A stretch of DNA of 64,000 nt from Akkermansiaceae bacterium (lineage in GTDB: Bacteria; Verrucomicrobiota; Verrucomicrobiia; Verrucomicrobiales; Akkermansiaceae), in contig JAYSYA010000274.1 of the NCBI GenBank assembly GCA_043716765.1, positions 3,082 to 67,081 of the forward strand, in the 5' to 3' direction. The notes under the pieces are model-generated. The model did not search any database, was not told the origin of the DNA, and saw only the letters and a program-made list of their open reading frames with translations. Position numbers and translations under genes: made by a program. Positions 3,650 through 33,476 of the stretch are shown here, piece by piece. Position 1 is the stretch's first letter. Every line of letters starts with the position of its first letter.

Positions 3650-4336
3650 ATGCCGCATCCCTTCCACCCGTTCACGCAAGAACACTTCGTCGCGCTCGGC
3701 ATCGGCGTGGCCGCGACGGCGGCGTTTCTTATCGCCGGCAAGCGCGGGGGCAACGGCCGTTACCTGGCGACCGCGCTGCTGGCCTTCCTTAACTTGAGCG
3801 CCTATCCGCTCGGCCAGGCAGCGTGGCTTTCATTAGACGCGCCGAAATCGATCGACAACATTCTGCCGCTGCACCTCTGCGACATCGCCGCGATCACGGC
3901 CGGCTTCGCCTTGATCACCAAGCGCCCGCTGCTCTGCGCGCTGACGTATTTCTGGGGGCTTGCAGCGACCTTGCAGGCACTTATCACGCCGGCCATCACC
4001 GTGGGATTCCCGCATCCGCCCTTCGTAATGTTTTTCATCCACCACTTCGCGGTGGTGACCGCCGCGCTCTATCTGCCACTGGTGGAAGGCTGGCGGCCGG
4101 CGCAACCGGTTTGGAAAAGCCCACTTGTCATCTCCGCCTGGTCGCTCGGCTACCTCGGCATGGCCATGGCCGTAAACAGCGTGTTAGGCAGCAATTTCGG
4201 CTTCGCTTGCCGCCCACCGGACAACCCCAGCCTGATCGACCATCTCGGCCCGTGGCCTTGGTATCTGTGCTCGATAATCGGGATCGCGCTGCTGTTCTAT
4301 TTCCTGCTGGCGCTGCCGTTCGCAAAACGGAAGTGA
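3650..4336 (+). CDS. Integral membrane protein, YwaF/TIGR02206-like
   Basis: Multiple TM segments; LPLHLCD, FFIHH, LGPWPWY motifs. Confidence 0.8.
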   Translation: MPHPFHPFTQEHFVALGIGVAATAAFLIAGKRGGNGRYLATALLAFLNLSAYPLGQAAWLSLDAPKSIDNILPLHLCDIAAITAGFALITKRPLLCALTYFWGLAATLQALITPAITVGFPHPPFVMFFIHHFAVVTAALYLPLVEGWRPAQPVWKSPLVISAWSLGYLGMAMAVNSVLGSNFGFACRPPDNPSLIDHLGPWPWYLCSIIGIALLFYFLLALPFAKRK

Positions 4337-27054: not shown

Positions 27055-28896
27055 ATGAGTCAATCAATCGAAACCTCTCACCTACCCTTGCAAAAATGGG
27101 TCGCTGCAATGACCGCCCTCTGCACCCCCGAAACGGTCGAGTGGTGCGACGGTTCGCAAGCAGAGTGGGACCGTCTGACGACGCTGATGGTGGACAAGGG
27201 GACCTTCACCCGCCTCAATCCTGCCAAGCGCCCTAACTCGTTCCTCGCCCGCTCGACACCGTCCGACGTCGCCCGCGTGGAAGACCGCACCTATATCTGT
27301 TCGAAACGCCGCGACGAAGCTGGCCCCACCAATCACTGGGCGGACCCCGCCGAGATGCGCACAAAGTTGAACGAAAAATTCAAAAGCGCCATGAAAGGGC
27401 GGACGATGTATGTCATCCCCTTCTGCATGGGTCCGCCCGACTCGCCGCTCGCCAAGATCGGCGTGGAAATTTCCGATAGTCCTTACGTGGTCGTCAACAT
27501 GCGGATCATGTGCCACATGGGTGCCCACGTCCTCAAGCGCCTCGAAGACGAAGCTAACGGCACGCTCGCCATTAAGCGCGACGGACACGGCCAGTTCATT
27601 CCCTGCCTCCACTCCGTCGGCGCGCCGCTTGAGCCCGGCCAAGCCGACTCCACCTGGCCCTGCTGCGATGACAAATACATCGTCCATTTTCCCGAGACCC
27701 GCGAGATCATGTCCTTCGGCTCGGGCTATGGCGGCAATGCCCTGCTAGGAAAAAAATGTCTTGCCCTGCGCATCGCTTCCAACATCGCCCGCGAGCACCA
27801 ATGGATGGCCGAGCACATGCTCATCGTCGGCATCCACGCGCCGAACGGCACCAAGAGCTACCTGACCGCCGCCTTCCCCTCCGCCTGCGGCAAAACCAAT
27901 CTTGCCATGCTCATCCCGCCCAAAGCCTATCTTGATGCGGGATGGAAGACCTCCATCGTCGGCGACGACATCGCCTGGCTGTGGCCTCATGCGGACGGCA
28001 AGCTCCACGCGATCAATCCGGAAACCGGCTTCTTCGGCGTGGCTCCCGGCACCGCTTACGAGACCAATCCCATCGCCATGGAGTCGATGAAGGAAAACAC
28101 CATTTTCACCAACGTCGCGCTAACGGATGACGGCGACGTCTGGTGGGAAGGCATGTCCCCGACCAAACCCGCGCACCTCATCGATTGGACCGGCAAGGAC
28201 TGGACGCCCGACTGCGGCCGCGCCGCCGCCCATGCCAACGCCCGCTTCACCGCGCCCGCCGTGCAGTGCCCGACCATCGACCCGGAGTGGCAAAATCCGG
28301 ACGGCGTGCCCATCGACGGCATCGTCTTCGGCGGCCGCCGCCCCACGACCATGCCGCTTGTCTATCAGGCATTCAACTGGAGCCACGGCGTTTACATCGG
28401 AGCCACCATGGGTTCGGAAATGACCGCCGCCGCCGCCGGCACCATCGGCAAGGTCCGCCGCGACCCGATGGCCATGCTGCCGTTCTGCGGCTATAACATG
28501 GGCGCGTATTTCGGCCATTGGCTGGAAATGCGCCGCTACCTGACCAGCCTGCCGCGCTTCTTCCACGTCAACTGGTTCCGCAAGGACGAAGACGGAAAAT
28601 TCCTGTGGCCCGGCTTCGGCGAGAACATGCGCGTCCTCGAATGGATCGTAAAACGCTGCCACGGTGCCGCCGCCGGCTACGAAACACAGATCGGTTGGAC
28701 TCCGGCGTTCGAGGATTTCAACATCGAAGGTCTCGAGGGCTTCAACCGCGAGAGCTACGACAAAGTCATGGCCTTCAACCGCGCGGAATGGAAGACGGAG
28801 CTCGTCAGCCAGGGAGAACTCTTCATCGACCTCTATGACGACCTGCCGAAGGAACTCATCTTCCAACGCGAGCTGCTAGCAGCGCGTCTGTCCTGA
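27055..28896 (+). CDS. pckG: Phosphoenolpyruvate carboxykinase (GTP)
   Basis: [57 protein letters not shown]. Confidence 0.97.
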
Positions 28897-28900
28897 GATG

Positions 28901-28976
28901 GAGAATGTGTCCCGGCGGTCTCAGCCGGGGGCGGTGGCTTTGAATCCGGCTGAGACAGCCGGAACACTTTGAAGCG
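28901..28976. repeat. 76-bp REP-like palindromic element, copy 1
   Basis: GAGAATGTGTCCCGGCGGTCTCAGCCGG...CCGGCTGAGACAGCCGGAACACTTTGAAGCG; internal stem GTCTCAGCCGG/CCGGCTGAGAC; 74/76 identical to 31683-31758. Confidence 0.93.
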
Positions 28977-28993: not shown

Positions 28994-29798
28994 TCAATAC
29001 GTCGGCATCGCACCGCAGCGGAAAACCGCATCCAGCACGTTCTTATCCGTCCGCGGATCATAACGAACAGTCATCGCGGTCCGGCGCTTCTCGTCGTGCC
29101 AATCCTTCCAATAAATCATCAGTGCCTTGCCATATTCCTTGTGCTCCACCACCGCTTTGATCTGCGAATCCAGCGACCCAATGGCGTGCTTCGTCTCGAT
29201 GAGTAATATCCCGTCCCGTGCCACCGTCCGGTTTTTCACACCGACGATGAAGTCCGGGAAAAACCGCCCGCCATCAGGGCGGACAATGGCCACCGAGTGC
29301 TTCTTCTTCACGGGATTCCGGTGCCACCACAGAACCGTTCCCTCCGGATCATGATCCAACAGCTTGGCGAACTCGACTTCCCACGGATTCAAATCCGCCG
29401 GGAAAACGCCATAAACATTCTTAAATGATAGATTTAGCTTCACCGGCGAATCCACAAATCCCGGCAACGGCTCCGTTTTCCGCGTGAATGAAAATCGCGC
29501 CGCGCAGGATTTCTCCACCTCGCGCAGCAAGCCGGGATGGCGGACAAGGATCAAGGCCAGCGCCACTTCCAGCCGCTCCTCATCCTCCGCCACCTCGGTC
29601 ATGCCATGATTGCGGAACTCCACCGCCAGCCGCTTTAGCAAGTGATCCTGCAAATCCTTCGGGCTTAAATATTGCTGCCGCAGGAGAAGCCATGCTGGCC
29701 TGTGCTTCCTGCAATTTGGTGAAAACCGTGCGGAGGAGCTCGTTCGTGGAATCCGTCCCGATGCCATGGCGGCGGAGAGAAAGGCGTTTCCGCCCCAT
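28994..29798 (-). pseudogene. Type III restriction (Res) subunit C-terminal remnant
   Basis: NVYGVFPADLNPWEVEFAKLLD...WWHRNP...FFPDFIV...LIETK PD-(D/E)XK nuclease end. Frameshifted near 29700; helicase domains absent. Confidence 0.7.
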
Positions 29799-29861
29799 GA
29801 GCGATCCAGCCGTTTAGTGATGAGGTGGGCGGCATTCAGGACGAGGATCTCGATGTGCCAC

Positions 29862-29984
29862 TTACCGGCGACTGTTATCCTGCTCCCACACCAGCCCGAA
29901 CCTCTTCCGGTCCCGCGCCTCCAGCAGCTCAACCAGCTGTTTCTTCGTCAGATCGCGAAATTTTGTCGGGTCATTGGCGGGCAC
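29862..29984 (-). pseudogene. Type III methyltransferase (Mod) N-terminal stub
   Basis: VPANDPTKFRDLTKKQLVELLEARDRKRFGLVWEQDNSRR*. The L..LLEARDR..FGLVWE pattern resembles Mod N-termini. Confidence 0.55.
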
Positions 29985-30141
29985 AGGCAAATTAATTGCC
30001 CAGCCTGTGGGGTGAGAAAAGAAATTCGGGCATTGGATTTCTCGTCAACGCGCGAGGTTTTGAGCAAAATGTCTGTCACCGACCTGTGATGGGAATGAGA
30101 AGTTCTCTTCCCATGAACTGGTTGTCTACGCCCTCGAGTGA

Positions 30142-30372
30142 CTAATGGGTCTTGCAGATCAGGAACTTCTCGAAATCACCCGTTGTCGGAGCACTGAACT
30201 CTTGGCGCCGGATGAAACCCCTCGATTCCAAGTCATTAATGCGCGTCCGAAGACGTGCAACCCGTGCGACTTGCTCGCTGGACTGAGCCTCAACGGTTTT
30301 GCGCAAGGCACCCGCAACCTTTTCGACGATCTCAGAAGTAACGGCGGTTGTGGAGGAAGAATTGGCGGTCAT
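30142..30372 (-). CDS. Small hypothetical protein (76 aa) downstream of the SDH protease
   Basis: MTANSSSTT...VARLRTRINDLESRGFIRRQEF..., overlapping the protease stop by 41 nt and followed by a hairpin at about 30089-30114. Confidence 0.5.
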   Translation of the reverse strand: MTANSSSTTAVTSEIVEKVAGALRKTVEAQSSEQVARVARLRTRINDLESRGFIRRQEFSAPTTGDFEKFLICKTH

Positions 30373-31204
30373 GACGGTTGATGTAGTCGGTGATGAACTC
30401 GGAATACGCAAGAATTTTAGTCCGCAGTTCAAGATCTGTCGAATAGTCTTCGATCTTGAGTTTGAGGAGGTTTTTAATGGTTCCCACCCCAATCTTTCTT
30501 CCGTGGGAATGCCAGATCTTGTTGTCCGAGAGCCTCATGGCAATTTCCTCGGCCCGCTGCTGCTTTTCGGATTCTGTGACCGGCTGCCCTATTTTGGTAG
30601 GATTCGAATCGTGGATTTTCCAATCCTTGAACTTGTATTCAACCAGCCATTTTTTGAGCAGTGTGATGGTGAGGTTTTTTGCCTGCTCGAACCTGCTGAG
30701 CATGGCCAAGTCCAGATTCTGAAGAATTACCAACTCGGCATCAGTCAGAGTTCCCAAGGCAGATTTCTCGACCATCTTCTCGACTTGATCCAAATATCCA
30801 AGAGCCGGAACCCAATCCTTGCCATTATGAACCTGGGGATCAATCGGCCCCAACGAAGACGTGTAGTCCATATAAATCGCATCACCTGAAAGAGCAAAAA
30901 TGGTGCCTGCGGACATTGCTTCGTCAGGAATGATGAACAAGACTTCAGAGTAGTGATACCGAATAATTTCAACCAGCTTTTCGACAGTCTCGGCGCTTCC
31001 TCCGGGGGTGTTCAGAACGATTGCAACCTTATCTCTTGTGGGCTTTTCCTCTCGTAAATCCTCGATGAACTCTCGAAATAATTTTTCAATCGACGGGAAG
31101 ATAGGGCCATGAAACAGAACCACATCAGCATTCAAATGCTGTTCAAGGGCCATGATCCGCTCCTTCGCGGTTTCTCTAATATGCGCATCAAATACTCTCA
31201 TCAT
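30332..31204 (-). CDS. SDH-family ClpP/crotonase-fold serine protease
   Basis: LNTPGG, AMSAGT (nucleophile Ser), SSLGPIDPQ, WHSHGR motifs. Low-GC codon usage. Confidence 0.88.
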   Translation of the reverse strand: MMRVFDAHIRETAKERIMALEQHLNADVVLFHGPIFPSIEKLFREFIEDLREEKPTRDKVAIVLNTPGGSAETVEKLVEIIRYHYSEVLFIIPDEAMSAGTIFALSGDAIYMDYTSSLGPIDPQVHNGKDWVPALGYLDQVEKMVEKSALGTLTDAELVILQNLDLAMLSRFEQAKNLTITLLKKWLVEYKFKDWKIHDSNPTKIGQPVTESEKQQRAEEIAMRLSDNKIWHSHGRKIGVGTIKNLLKLKIEDYSTDLELRTKILAYSEFITDYINRHDRQFFLHNRRYF

Positions 31205-31682
31205 TGTGGCTGGGTGGGTCGGTGATTGGATTGCGAGAAGATGACTTTTTTTATACTCCGAATAAGGTGCTTAAGGGTTACTCAGGGCGTAGGGTTTGTA
31301 GCAGTGGTGGTGGTGGCAAGTAGTAACGGAATAATGGATTTCTCCAACCGTTACTGGAAACTGGCAGAAGCTGTTTCTTTAGGAAGCTTCAAATGTGAAA
31401 AGCTAATATTTCCCACAAATCGCTCGTATTGAGCCGACTAGGATATTGGGACGGCTGCAATTGGATGAGCCTCGACATGACCTCGCACGGACCTCGGGGG
31501 CGATCTGTATCAACCTTGGCGTCGGCTCTTGCGGACCTCGGAGCGGTCAGTACAAAGCTGCGCACCGGCTGATACGAGCCTTGGGTTGGGCTGGGTTGAA
31601 ACTGGACATTGATCGCGATGACCTTTTTCGCATTCCGCATCAACCTCGGGACGCGCGGCGAGGGCCTTGGCTTGGGCTGAAA

Positions 31683-31758
31683 GAGAATGTGTCCCGGCGG
31701 TCTCAGCCGGGGGCGTTGGCTTTGGATCCGGCTGAGACAGCCGGAACACTTTGAAGCG
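31683..31758. repeat. 76-bp REP-like palindromic element, copy 2
   Basis: Direct repeat of 28901-28976 with 2 mismatches; ends 2 nt before the stop of the convergent PBP gene. Confidence 0.93.
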
Positions 31759-31760
31759 AA

Positions 31761-33476
31761 TCAGTTGTTCCCCAACCGCTTGACGAACTCGTCGAGCAGG
31801 GACTTGAGGCGGGGTTCGCGGGCGATGGCGGCGGGCTTGTCGAAGCCGAGCCAGATGGCGGTCGCGCCGCCGGGGCCGAGGCGGAGGGTCCAGGCGTCGC
31901 GCTCGGAACCGGTGGCTCCAGTGAAACAGCGGGTGCCGCCGGAGCGTTGCAAGACGCTGGTGGCATCGAGCGCGGCGGTGGGGCTGAGGGCGGCGCTCAG
32001 AACGGGCTTGGCTTTGTAAATCACCTCGCCGGTGCTGTCGCGAATTTCCTGAATCAGATAGGGTTTGGCGCGTTTTCCCTGGTTGCCGAGGGTGGCGAGA
32101 CCGATCGACATTTCTCGGGGGGTGGCGGCGACGGAGCCGCGGAACAGGTCCTCGGTTTGGACAAAGGGGCCGGCGATGTGGACGCCGCAACGTTTGGCGA
32201 GGCGTTCCACTTCGGATGGGCCGATCTGGCGGCCGGTTTGCACGGGCTTGCCGGGCAGCACGAGCTTGCCCCGCTCGGCGGCGGCGGCGGCGACGAAGGG
32301 TTCGAAAGCGGACCCGAGATCGCGGCGGGAGCGGCTGCGGTCGACGCGCGAGTCGCTGAAATTTCGCCCGCCGATGAGGGCAAGGGTGGCACCGCTGCGG
32401 ATCTCGGTGGTGACTGCGGCATATTGCAGATAGGCGGGCTCGGTGCCGGAGACGTGGTTGGCTTCGGTGGGGTGCGCCCATGTTTTTTCCCCCTCCAGGT
32501 CCTCGACGGCGCGGGTGAGTTCGGTTTCGAGGCGGTTCTGCCAGGATGCGTCCAAGGTGGTGTGGACCGTGAGACCGCCGAGCTTGATGTCGTCCGCTTC
32601 AAGGATGCGGTCGAGTTCGCCGCGCACGGCTTGCAGGGCATAGGATGTCTGGGTTTCACGCTGCTCCTCACTGACTAGGTTGACGGGCTCGGCGGCAATC
32701 TGATCGCGGCGGGCGGGATCGATGAGCTTCATCACGACCAGTCGGTTGAGCGTTTGGCTGCGCTGTTGGAGGGCGGCATCGAGATTGCGCAGGGGCGAGA
32801 AGGCGTTGGGGCCGCGGATGATGCCGACGATCATTGAGCATTCACCTTCGCTGAGGTTGCGGGCGGGTTTGCCGAAATAGGTGCGCGCCGCTTGCTCGAC
32901 GCCATCGGCACCGGCCCCGAAATAGACGCGGTTAAGGTAGTGGGTGAGGATCTCGTCCTTGGTGTAGCGGGATTCAACTCGGAGTGTCAGCGCGATGGCG
33001 AGGAATTTGGCGTGCAGGGATTTCTGCTTTAGTTTGAAGCTCAGCCGCGAGAGCTGCATGGTGAGCGTCGAAGCGCCCTGGGTAAAATCCCAATCCTTGA
33101 CGTTCCTAACTGTCGCCCGGAGCAAGCCGCGGAAATCGACTCCGCCGTGCTCGAAAAACCGCGCGTCTTCGCGGGCGCGCAGCGATTTCACCAGGAAGTC
33201 CGGGATGTCCTCGCGCTTCACCAGCTTGCCGCTGTTACTGCCGGGGGCGGTGATTTCCTGGCCCTTGCGGTCATAAAAAGTGGTGCCAGCGGGGAGCTTG
33301 GCGACCTCGTCCATGTCAAAGCGCATCGCGAGCATGAAGTAGAAGAACGCGAAGCCGAACAGGGCGATGAATCCCGCGAGCGAGAGTTGGAACAGTAATG
33401 TCACCGGGCCGTGCAGCCACGCGGGGAGCCAGCGCTTCCAAAACGACGGTGGATGGATGGGACGCCAGGTGGACAT
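31761..33476 (-). CDS. Class A PBP-like transglycosylase with degenerate transpeptidase domain
   Basis: TM anchor, EDARFFEHGGVD, GASTLTMQL. Transpeptidase SxxK reads SAFE; no SxN or KTG. Confidence 0.85.
   Translation of the reverse strand: MSTWRPIHPPSFWKRWLPAWLHGPVTLLFQLSLAGFIALFGFAFFYFMLAMRFDMDEVAKLPAGTTFYDRKGQEITAPGSNSGKLVKREDIPDFLVKSLRAREDARFFEHGGVDFRGLLRATVRNVKDWDFTQGASTLTMQLSRLSFKLKQKSLHAKFLAIALTLRVESRYTKDEILTHYLNRVYFGAGADGVEQAARTYFGKPARNLSEGECSMIVGIIRGPNAFSPLRNLDAALQQRSQTLNRLVVMKLIDPARRDQIAAEPVNLVSEEQRETQTSYALQAVRGELDRILEADDIKLGGLTVHTTLDASWQNRLETELTRAVEDLEGEKTWAHPTEANHVSGTEPAYLQYAAVTTEIRSGATLALIGGRNFSDSRVDRSRSRRDLGSAFEPFVAAAAAERGKLVLPGKPVQTGRQIGPSEVERLAKRCGVHIAGPFVQTEDLFRGSVAATPREMSIGLATLGNQGKRAKPYLIQEIRDSTGEVIYKAKPVLSAALSPTAALDATSVLQRSGGTRCFTGATGSERDAWTLRLGPGGATAIWLGFDKPAAIAREPRLKSLLDEFVKRLGNN

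What the first reader, a model, noticed from the sequence alone, without database searches (positions are those of the whole stretch)
30089..31204. Intact ClpP-fold (SDH) protease plus an overlapping 76-aa ORF as a candidate two-gene defence or toxin module
Seen: a 290-aa protease with intact LNTPGG / AMSAGT / LGPIDPQ motifs, directly followed by a small ORF predicted to be helical, then a hairpin. Both frames are undamaged while the type III R-M downstream in the same cassette is destroyed. Inference: the pair is still under selection, and its position in front of an R-M system suggests an anti-phage or addiction role, e.g. the protease cleaving or activating the small protein or sensing a phage protein. 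I do not recall this pair as a named system.
Basis: partly seen in the sequence, partly recalled or inferred. Interest (0 to 1): 0.7.

Follow-up and report, generated by a model that had tools for sequence, protein, structure and literature searches.

The report
Mobile Clp-fold protease with mini-partner
An intact serine-protease gene and the tiny gene overlapping its end form a two-gene unit that travels together through at least 14 bacterial phyla, plasmids and E. coli prophages. It often sits where anti-phage genes sit, so it is most likely a protease-based phage-exclusion or addiction module, and its mechanism is unknown.

Summary
Window 30332-31204(-) encodes a 290-aa SDH-type ClpP-fold serine protease (PF01972) with invariant S98, D122 and H234. 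Window 30142-30372(-) encodes a real 76-aa partner that overlaps it by 41 nt.

The partner was found beside 76 of 76 intact protease homologues from at least 14 phyla. It shows purifying selection (dN/dS about 0.2-0.4) and co-diverges with the protease. Its conserved core is an extended segment, G52..Y/F59..P62..R/K69.

The pair is a self-contained, horizontally mobile cassette:
- It is absent from 36 genomes of the same genus.
- Its GC is 0.46-0.49 against 0.60.
- A copy about 91% identical, covering exactly 30088-31214, lies in other flanks in another metagenome.

Contexts include the cI-N (rexAB) slot of E. coli lambdoid prophages, the inside of or the edge of type I and type III R-M operons, and plasmids. 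Many other contexts are housekeeping.

The downstream type III R-M in the window is indeed reduced to a Mod stub plus the Res C-terminus.

Best reading: a protease-effector conflict module whose small partner gates the protease. A system of this architecture is already named in DefenseFinder (FS_HP_SDH_sah). So this is a new member, or a new sub-architecture, of a known but mechanistically unexplored kind.

The parts
31683..31758 (.). REP-like 76-nt palindromic hairpin, the copy that bounds the islet on the PBP side
   Evidence: It is a 97% direct repeat of 28901-28976, and each copy is an inverted repeat. It belongs to a dispersed family with at least 17 further copies in this genome and 19-28 copies in some genomes of the same genus.
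31205..31682 (-). Upstream leader of the module. The proximal ~250 nt (31205-31450) are low-GC like the genes. No convincing sigma-70 promoter was found.
   Evidence: Composition profile and promoter scan. Homology with the ~91% relative in metagenome X5 ends at 31214.
30332..31204 (-). SDH-type ClpP-fold serine protease, 290 aa, cytoplasmic. Candidate triad is S98 / D122 / H234.
   Evidence: families. (invariant residues). (AF2 pLDDT 92.3, pTM 0.89). (fold matches: NfeD 1510-N, SppA and ClpP for the N-domain; giant-virus SDH proteinases over the full length).
30142..30372 (-). Conserved 76-aa partner gene whose ATG lies inside the protease's R-H-D codons (41-nt overlap). It has two variable helices, a conserved extended segment (G52, F59, P62, K69) and a short C-terminal helix.
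   Evidence: present in 76/76 loci. (dN/dS). (co-divergence and per-column conservation). (fold). (CAT-G or AAT-G kept in nearly all overlap-type loci).
30088..30141 (-). 3' trailer with a weak hairpin (30089-30114). It is the end of the stretch shared with the ~91% relative.
   Evidence: fold, z = -1.2. (X5 contig aligns to exactly 30088-31214). No Rfam family was found.
29862..29990 (-). Stub of a type III-like mod gene (N-terminal ~35 residues, then a stop)
   Evidence: It matches residues 3-35 of the Azospirillum site-specific DNA methyltransferase, pairwise E = 7e-6. That gene heads an intact mod-res pair.
28994..29716 (-). C-terminal remnant of the type III-like res gene (PD-(D/E)xK nuclease end). 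It is not part of the protease module.
   Evidence: 40% identity to residues 620-828 of the 860-aa Azospirillum Res, E = 1e-40. No Pfam helicase domain is left.
28901..28976 (.). REP-like hairpin, the copy that bounds the islet on the PEPCK side

Best explanation
The protease and the 76-aa protein are one horizontally mobile, two-gene conflict module for phage exclusion, abortive infection or addiction.

Shown:
- The two genes are translationally coupled and always inherited together.
- The protease keeps a complete Ser98-Asp122-His234 set and is very strongly conserved (55-87% identity across phyla).
- The partner evolves about twice as fast, except for one extended segment (G52, aromatic 59, P62, basic 55/56/69).
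- In E. coli the pair sits directly behind the prophage repressor gene, where lambda keeps rexAB.

Inferred:
- The soluble, ATP-independent Clp-fold protease is the effector.
- The partner's conserved extended segment binds the protease, in or near the substrate groove, and keeps it latent or directs it.
- The partner's variable helical hairpin is the part exposed to selection by phages.
- Infection disturbs the complex, and the protease then cleaves a host or phage target, which stops phage growth.

In this window the module is an intact, recently acquired passenger lying next to a decayed type III R-M.
For: Unit character:
- The partner ORF was found next to 75/80 loci by HMM. Four of the five misses are contig ends or disrupted proteases. 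The fifth (L048) has the ORF on inspection, giving 76/76 intact loci.
- The same holds on E. coli, Methylosinus and Rhizobium replicons at 40-48% protease identity.
- The 41-nt overlap is identical in the relatives examined.
- The His/Asn codon that supplies the overlapping ATG is CAT or AAT in all but one overlap-type locus.
- dN/dS is 0.23 against L004, with a median of 0.37.
- Distance matrices correlate at r = 0.59; 0 of 2000 Mantel permutations reached this.

No third partner: clustering of 2,756 flanking ORFs gives no other recurrent neighbour.

Mobility:
- The protease is absent from 36 genomes of the same genus.
- GC is low.
- The 97%-identical relative has different flanks.
- A ~91% copy of exactly 30088-31214 lies in other flanks.

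Conflict context:
- The pair sits in the cI-N slot in 17 of 5426 E. coli genomes.
- It is embedded in hsdR-[pair-DUF5131]-hsdS-hsdM.
- It abuts type I or type III R-M in three Gemmatimonadota loci.
- R-M families top the neighbour tally.
- Fic, multiubiquitin-ThiF, PIN and an Hhe-like helicase lie nearby.

Polarity: five E. coli copies have the protease deleted, frameshifted or hit by an IS while the partner stays intact behind cI. The partner alone is therefore tolerated.

Active site: S98 and D122 are invariant and H234 is nearly invariant.

Against: - There is no functional data here, and no co-fold or interaction evidence.
- Catalytic geometry was not measured in the model.
- PADLOC 2023 has no model that hits either protein.
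- Most neighbours are housekeeping genes. Defence-island enrichment is moderate and was not tested against a proper background.
- The 5-to-0 asymmetry of decay (protease lost, partner kept) is what the fivefold larger target size of the protease predicts, so it is weak evidence.
- The partner has no recognisable domain.
- In this window no promoter was identified and no RNA data exist.
Confidence: 0.55

Rival explanations
1. Pure addiction (toxin-antitoxin-like) module. The protease is a toxin and the labile small protein is its antidote. The role is to stabilise mobile DNA such as plasmids, R-M islands and prophages, with no phage sensing.
For: - It is a compact, translationally coupled two-gene cassette scattered singly among unrelated genes, on plasmids, next to other TA pairs (PIN, HicAB) and inside decaying R-M operons.
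- Losses seen in E. coli hit the protease and never the partner alone.
Against: - The partner has no DNA-binding domain or other antitoxin hallmark.
- Placement behind cI in lysogens, and the existence of a DefenseFinder system of the same architecture, point to phage exclusion.
- The asymmetry of losses is explained by target size.
Confidence: 0.2
2. Reverse polarity or 'guard' model. The small protein is the harmful or signalling component. The protease removes it continuously, and a phage-encoded protease inhibitor lets it accumulate.
For: - Phages are known to inhibit host proteases (established knowledge: T4 PinA, lambda cIII).
- The partner's conserved extended segment could be a degron or cleavage site.
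Against: - Five E. coli genomes keep the small ORF directly behind cI with the protease deleted, frameshifted or interrupted. This should be lethal or costly if the undegraded partner were toxic.
- The partner has no membrane or nuclease features.
Confidence: 0.08
3. A non-conflict function. Either it is a housekeeping or stress protease with a dedicated small substrate or chaperone, by analogy with the NfeD protease and stomatin, or it is a relic of a phage head-maturation protease with a scaffold.
For: - The closest solved folds are NfeD 1510-N, SppA and ClpP.
- There are weak hits to head-maturation protease families.
- Many neighbours are housekeeping genes.
Against: - Distribution is patchy and strain-specific: 1 of 37 genomes of the genus.
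- Identity is very high across phyla, which implies frequent transfer.
- There is no stomatin, portal or capsid neighbour.
- In E. coli the pair lies in the immunity region, not in the head module, where a separate S49 prohead protease exists.
Confidence: 0.1
4. The 76-aa ORF is a chance open frame over the protease 3' end and is not a gene.
For: Gene callers missed it in several metagenome records. No family matches it.
Against: It is present in 76/76 loci, shares a motif across three subtypes, has dN/dS below 1, keeps a conserved start, and co-diverges with the protease.
Confidence: 0.01

Closest known systems
DefenseFinder system FS_HP_SDH_sah (PICI-borne anti-phage system of Fillol-Salom et al., Cell 2022; the paper is not held, so its content is recalled from memory)
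   Same: The architecture is the same: a small hypothetical protein plus a PF01972 (formerly 'SDH_sah') protease, carried by phage-related mobile elements. The mechanism is unknown. The existence of the name was checked in PMC13532340.
   Different: - Whether the validated pair is this sub-family could not be tested.
- E. coli has two distinct sub-architectures. In one the partner is downstream, sits in the cI-N slot, and the protease is 48% identical to the window's. In the other the partner is upstream, sits between Q or the lysis genes and the terminase genes, and the protease is only 24% identical with an unrelated partner.
- The name order 'HP_SDH' hints at the second type.
- The window copy is not on a recognisable PICI or prophage.
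Pfam PF01972 / MEROPS S49-related SDH-type ClpP-fold serine proteinases
   Same: It scores above the gathering threshold, has the Ser-Asp-His order, and has a ClpP/crotonase N-domain.
   Different: It scores only 65 bits against NCBIfam NF047768, whose cut-off is 250. The family has no solved structure and no known substrate. This subfamily is defined by its obligatory small partner.
NfeD (1510-N) protease and stomatin operon
   Same: This is the best solved fold match for the N-domain (6m4b and 3bpp). A ClpP-fold protease is encoded next to its own protein partner or substrate.
   Different: NfeD uses a Ser-Lys dyad, is membrane-bound and has an SPFH partner. Here there is no TM segment, a Ser-Asp-His set and a 76-aa soluble partner. 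The NfeD1b_N score is below its cut-off (38.1 against 40).
Lambda RexAB and e14 Lit (prophage-encoded exclusion systems)
   Same: In E. coli the pair occupies the rexAB position between cI and N. Lit is the precedent for a prophage protease that aborts infection once a phage peptide activates it (established knowledge).
   Different: There is no sequence or fold relationship. Lit is a zinc metalloprotease, and RexAB is an ion-channel and sensor pair.
Type II toxin-antitoxin modules
   Same: Size, translational coupling, scattered mobile distribution and association with R-M remnants are all alike.
   Different: Neither protein belongs to a known toxin or antitoxin family, and the partner has no DNA-binding fold.

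Membership tests
SDH-type ClpP-fold serine proteinase (Pfam PF01972) | Match to the family HMM above the gathering score | tested here: met
   57.4 bits against a cut-off of 31.3, residues 26-193.
SDH-type ClpP-fold serine proteinase (Pfam PF01972) | Catalytic residues in the order Ser, Asp, His | tested here: met
   S98 and D122 are invariant and H234 is at least 90% conserved in 63-66 sequences. D122 lies about 24 residues after S98, roughly where ClpP has its His (my reading of the motifs, not an alignment to ClpP). Spatial proximity in the model was not measured.
SDH-type ClpP-fold serine proteinase (Pfam PF01972) | ClpP/crotonase-like fold | tested here: met
   The AF2 model has pLDDT 92.3. 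Foldseek matches 1510-N, SppA and ClpP at E of about 1e-6. Giant-virus SDH proteinases match at TM of about 0.6.
NCBIfam NF047768 'SDH family Clp fold serine proteinase' (equivalog) | Score above the curated cut-off of 250 bits | tested here: not met
   65.4 bits.
DefenseFinder FS_HP_SDH_sah | Two adjacent co-directional genes: a small hypothetical protein and a PF01972 protease | tested here: met
DefenseFinder FS_HP_SDH_sah | Both proteins hit the system's own HMMs | not testable with these tools
   The DefenseFinder models are not available. PADLOC-DB 2.0.0 has no hit.
DefenseFinder FS_HP_SDH_sah | Carried by a PICI or prophage | tested here: inconclusive
   The window islet has no phage genes. 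Relatives at 48% identity lie in E. coli lambdoid prophages. EDL933, which I had recalled as the source strain, has no SDH protease.
DefenseFinder FS_HP_SDH_sah | Anti-phage phenotype on expression | not testable with these tools
   This needs an experiment.
Type II toxin-antitoxin module | Antitoxin with a DNA-binding or otherwise known antitoxin fold, and a toxin of a known family | tested here: not met
   There is no Pfam, NCBIfam, PADLOC or PDB family for the partner. The protease is not a known toxin family.
NfeD-stomatin pair | SPFH/stomatin partner gene and a membrane-anchored protease | tested here: not met
   The partner is a 76-aa soluble helical protein. No SPFH neighbour was found.
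ClpP (S14) | CLP_protease HMM above its cut-off, and the Ser-His-Asp order | tested here: not met
   19.3 bits against a cut-off of 20.2. Asp replaces the His in the IDPQ motif.
Phage prohead (head-maturation) protease | Located in the head module next to portal and capsid genes | tested here: not met
   No such neighbours were found. E. coli prophages that carry SDH pairs have a separate S49 prohead protease in the head module.

The most novel reading that the evidence does not exclude
The SDH protease and mini-partner pair is a pan-bacterial immune module of a kind not yet understood. An ATP-independent, self-contained Clp-fold protease is locked by a fast-evolving pseudo-substrate partner. 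The partner's helical hairpin senses a phage product, and release of the lock triggers proteolysis that aborts infection. The window's sub-family (partner downstream, overlapping) would be a separate, unvalidated branch beside the PICI system listed in DefenseFinder.
Probability: 0.3. Interest if true: 0.75.

Novelty: new member of a known kind. Interest (0 to 1): 0.55.

Why it matters
If the reading is right, a very large family has an unexplored proteolytic mechanism and an obligatory partner of about 70 aa that gene callers often miss. The family has more than 6,800 protein clusters at 90% identity, spans at least 14 phyla, and occurs on plasmids and in E. coli prophages.

The E. coli copies sit in the rexAB slot of lambdoid prophages. 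The question is therefore directly testable in K-12 with standard phage panels.

The conserved extended motif of the partner and Ser98 of the protease give precise mutational targets.

For genome annotation, the overlapping small gene should be called whenever this protease is found.

Tried and rejected
- Literature. The Fillol-Salom 2022 paper is not held. No paper in the library describes SDH or PF01972 proteases in defence. The Tai paper is unrelated.
- Source strain. I recalled EDL933 as the source of the named system. That genome has no SDH protease, so that memory was dropped.
- Natural protease-partner fusions, to use as a stand-in for a co-fold. The longer homologues are only N-terminal extensions.
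- Empty site. The joined flanks do not occur contiguously in any of 40 genomes of the same genus. PEPCK and the PBP gene are not neighbours there. The 'duplicated' hairpin is a dispersed REP-like element, so a simple integration with target duplication is not shown.
- The R-M remnant and the upstream leader have no counterpart next to the pair in other loci.
- RNA families and an attC-like site around the 3' hairpin: nothing found.
- Promoter and terminator scans are at chance level.
- PDB profile hits of the partner are repeat artefacts (PPR designs).
- The asymmetry of gene decay as proof of toxin polarity was rejected as non-significant once target size is considered.

Full report
**What is there**

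On the minus strand, 30332-31204 is an uninterrupted 290-aa ORF and 30142-30372 is a 76-aa ORF. The 76-aa ORF's ATG lies 41 nt before the protease stop.

The protease matches Pfam SDH_protease PF01972 at 57.4 bits (cut-off 31.3). It falls below threshold on NfeD1b_N and CLP_protease. It scores 65 bits on NCBIfam NF047768, far below that model's cut-off of 250. It matches the function-unknown phage family phrog_11747 at 4.5e-59. Neither protein hits PADLOC-DB 2.0.0.

In alignments of 12, 66 and 63 relatives, S98 and D122 are invariant and H234 (WHSHGR) is at least 90% conserved. This is the Ser-Asp-His order that defines the family.

An AlphaFold2 model is confident (pLDDT 92.3, pTM 0.89). Its N-domain matches the NfeD 1510-N protease, SppA and ClpP. 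Only giant-virus 'serine dehydrogenase proteinases' match over the full length (TM about 0.6). No member of this family has a solved structure.

**The small ORF is a real, obligatory partner**

Three distant annotated homologues each carry a small gene directly after the protease: 56, 76 and 68 aa. They are an E. coli plasmid-borne lambdoid prophage, a Methylosinus plasmid and a Rhizobium plasmid, at 40-48% protease identity.

A scan of one genome per species gave 577 relatives. The best 80 loci come from at least 14 phyla at 55-78% identity.

An HMM of the partner finds it downstream in 75 of the 80. Of the five misses:
- two are contig ends;
- two have disrupted proteases, one by an IS;
- one (L048) has the ORF on inspection.

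That gives 76 of 76 intact loci.

There are three sub-types:
- overlapping by 41 nt, '...DLESRGFIRRQxFxAPTTxDFER';
- starting 3-28 nt after the stop, '...GIxKKxEYxLPPxDTIGR';
- a Desulfobacca-type variant.

All three align on G52, basic 55/56, aromatic 59, P62 and basic 69.

In the overlap type, the protease codon that supplies the ATG is CAT or AAT followed by G in all but one locus, even in GC-rich genomes.

dN/dS of the non-overlapping part is 0.23 against L004, with a median of 0.37 over 23 informative pairs.

Protease and partner distances correlate (r = 0.59; 0 of 2000 permutations reached this). The partner diverges about twice as fast (0.77 against 0.37).

AF2 gives the partner helices at 8-29, 32-50 and 64-75. 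The conserved segment 51-63 is extended. The pTM is low (0.38), as expected for a protein that takes shape on a partner.

The partner has no Pfam, PDB or named relatives. Gene callers missed it in several records.

**It is a self-contained mobile unit**

All-against-all clustering of 2,756 flanking ORFs shows no third recurrent gene.

The protease occurs once in this 3.4-Mb, 336-contig assembly. It is absent from 36 genomes of the same genus and, at this level of similarity, from the 24 genomes searched in other families of the order; one of those has only a distant 33%-identical hit.

GC is 0.46-0.49 over about 30140-31450, against about 0.60 around it. The R-M remnant is at 0.55-0.60.

The 97%-identical relative has other neighbours.

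A contig from a different study's sediment metagenome aligns at about 91% to exactly 30088-31214 and to nothing else in the region.

More distant relatives share DNA similarity only across the two coding regions.

**The islet**

The 2.7-kb islet is bounded by two 76-nt hairpins that are 97% alike. These belong to a dispersed REP-like family.

PEPCK and the PBP gene are not neighbours in related genomes. The islet therefore lies at a synteny break, and no target duplication is demonstrated.

Downstream of the pair, a mod stub matches residues 3-35 and a res remnant matches residues 620-828 of 860. The reference is an intact Azospirillum type III-like mod-res pair. The R-M is indeed destroyed.

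**Context**

In E. coli the pair is rare: 17 of 5426 complete genomes hold a full copy. In the loci inspected it lies between the LexA-family cI repressor and N, the position of rexAB in lambda.

Elsewhere it appears:
- inside a type I operon, as hsdR-[pair-DUF5131]-hsdS-hsdM;
- directly after type I or type III-like R-M genes in three Gemmatimonadota loci;
- near Fic, multiubiquitin-ThiF-DUF6527, PIN pairs, DUF1643 and an Hhe-like helicase.

Among 133 nearest-neighbour ORFs, R-M families head the tally (ResIII 5; type I, II and III methylases and specificity subunits). Most neighbours are ordinary metabolic genes. The defence association is real but moderate, and I did not compute a formal background.

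**Polarity**

Five of the 20 matching E. coli genomes have lost protease function while the partner gene stays intact behind cI. Three have a clean deletion, one has a frameshift and one has an IS3 insertion. None shows the reverse.

This argues against the partner being toxic when left undegraded. It fits, weakly, with the protease as the dangerous component. The protease is a fivefold larger target, so the asymmetry alone is not significant.

**Known relatives of the idea**

From memory, DefenseFinder lists FS_HP_SDH_sah, a two-gene anti-phage system from a phage-inducible chromosomal island (Fillol-Salom et al. 2022). [quoted passage not shown] The original paper is not held.

E. coli has a second SDH pair with the small gene upstream. 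It lies between Q or the lysis genes and the terminase genes. Its protease is only 24% identical to the window's and its partner is unrelated. The named system may be that type. Membership of the window's pair therefore could not be tested.

Earlier notes of this scan describe the same kind of pair in many genomes as uncharacterised. I treated them as leads. They prompted the Nissle check.

**Verdict**

The pair is a genuine, intact, horizontally acquired two-gene module.

Its most likely role is protease-based phage exclusion or addiction, with the small protein gating the protease through its conserved extended segment. That mechanism is inferred, not shown.

It belongs to a kind already listed among defence systems. 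The mechanism of that kind is unknown, and this sub-architecture may be unvalidated.

Noticed in passing
28901-28976 and 31683-31758; also G000 contigs C235, C291, C39, C241, C220, C231 and others: The 76-nt palindromic hairpin is a dispersed REP-like family. It has at least 17 more copies in this genome and 19-28 copies in some genomes of the same genus, but only 1-3 matches in most others. The two copies flanking the islet are far more alike (97%) than any other pair.
   Followed up: partly
27055-28896 (PEPCK) and 31761-33476 (PBP): These two convergent genes are not neighbours in any of 40 genomes of the same genus. They lie on different contigs or 18 kb to Mb apart. The islet therefore marks a rearrangement point rather than a simple insertion.
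   Followed up: partly
28994-29990: A type III-like mod-res operon has collapsed to a 35-residue Mod stub joined to the last ~210 residues of Res, a loss of about 3.4 kb. In another sediment metagenome (X7) the res part occurs at about 92% identity without the protease pair.
   Followed up: partly
L121:8096-9214 (E. coli Nissle 1917), L122, L123: A second, unrelated-partner architecture exists: a 66-68-aa ORF upstream of an SDH protease that is 24% identical to the window's. It occupies two other moron slots of lambdoid prophages, Q-lysis and lysis-terminase. About 80 of 5426 E. coli genomes have it.
   Followed up: partly
L012:5014-5184, L115, L116: Some E. coli prophages keep only the small partner gene behind cI. 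The protease is deleted, frameshifted or split by ISEc52.
   Followed up: yes
L004-L006, L016-L018: The overlapping small ORF is not called in the public gene predictions of these contigs, although it is intact. This looks like a systematic annotation gap for this family.
   Followed up: yes
L117:3258-4220 (Gordonia phage BeeGee gp31), L118:3249-4157 (Shewanella Mu-like phage p15): Distant SDH-type proteases (28-34% identity) sit in accessory regions of temperate phages. Each is followed by a larger unknown ORF rather than the mini-partner.
   Followed up: no
L073:~3869-4300: An IS3-family transposase ORF begins right where the protease homologue is truncated, at residue ~271 of 290. This is an example of the module being inactivated by an IS.
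   Followed up: no
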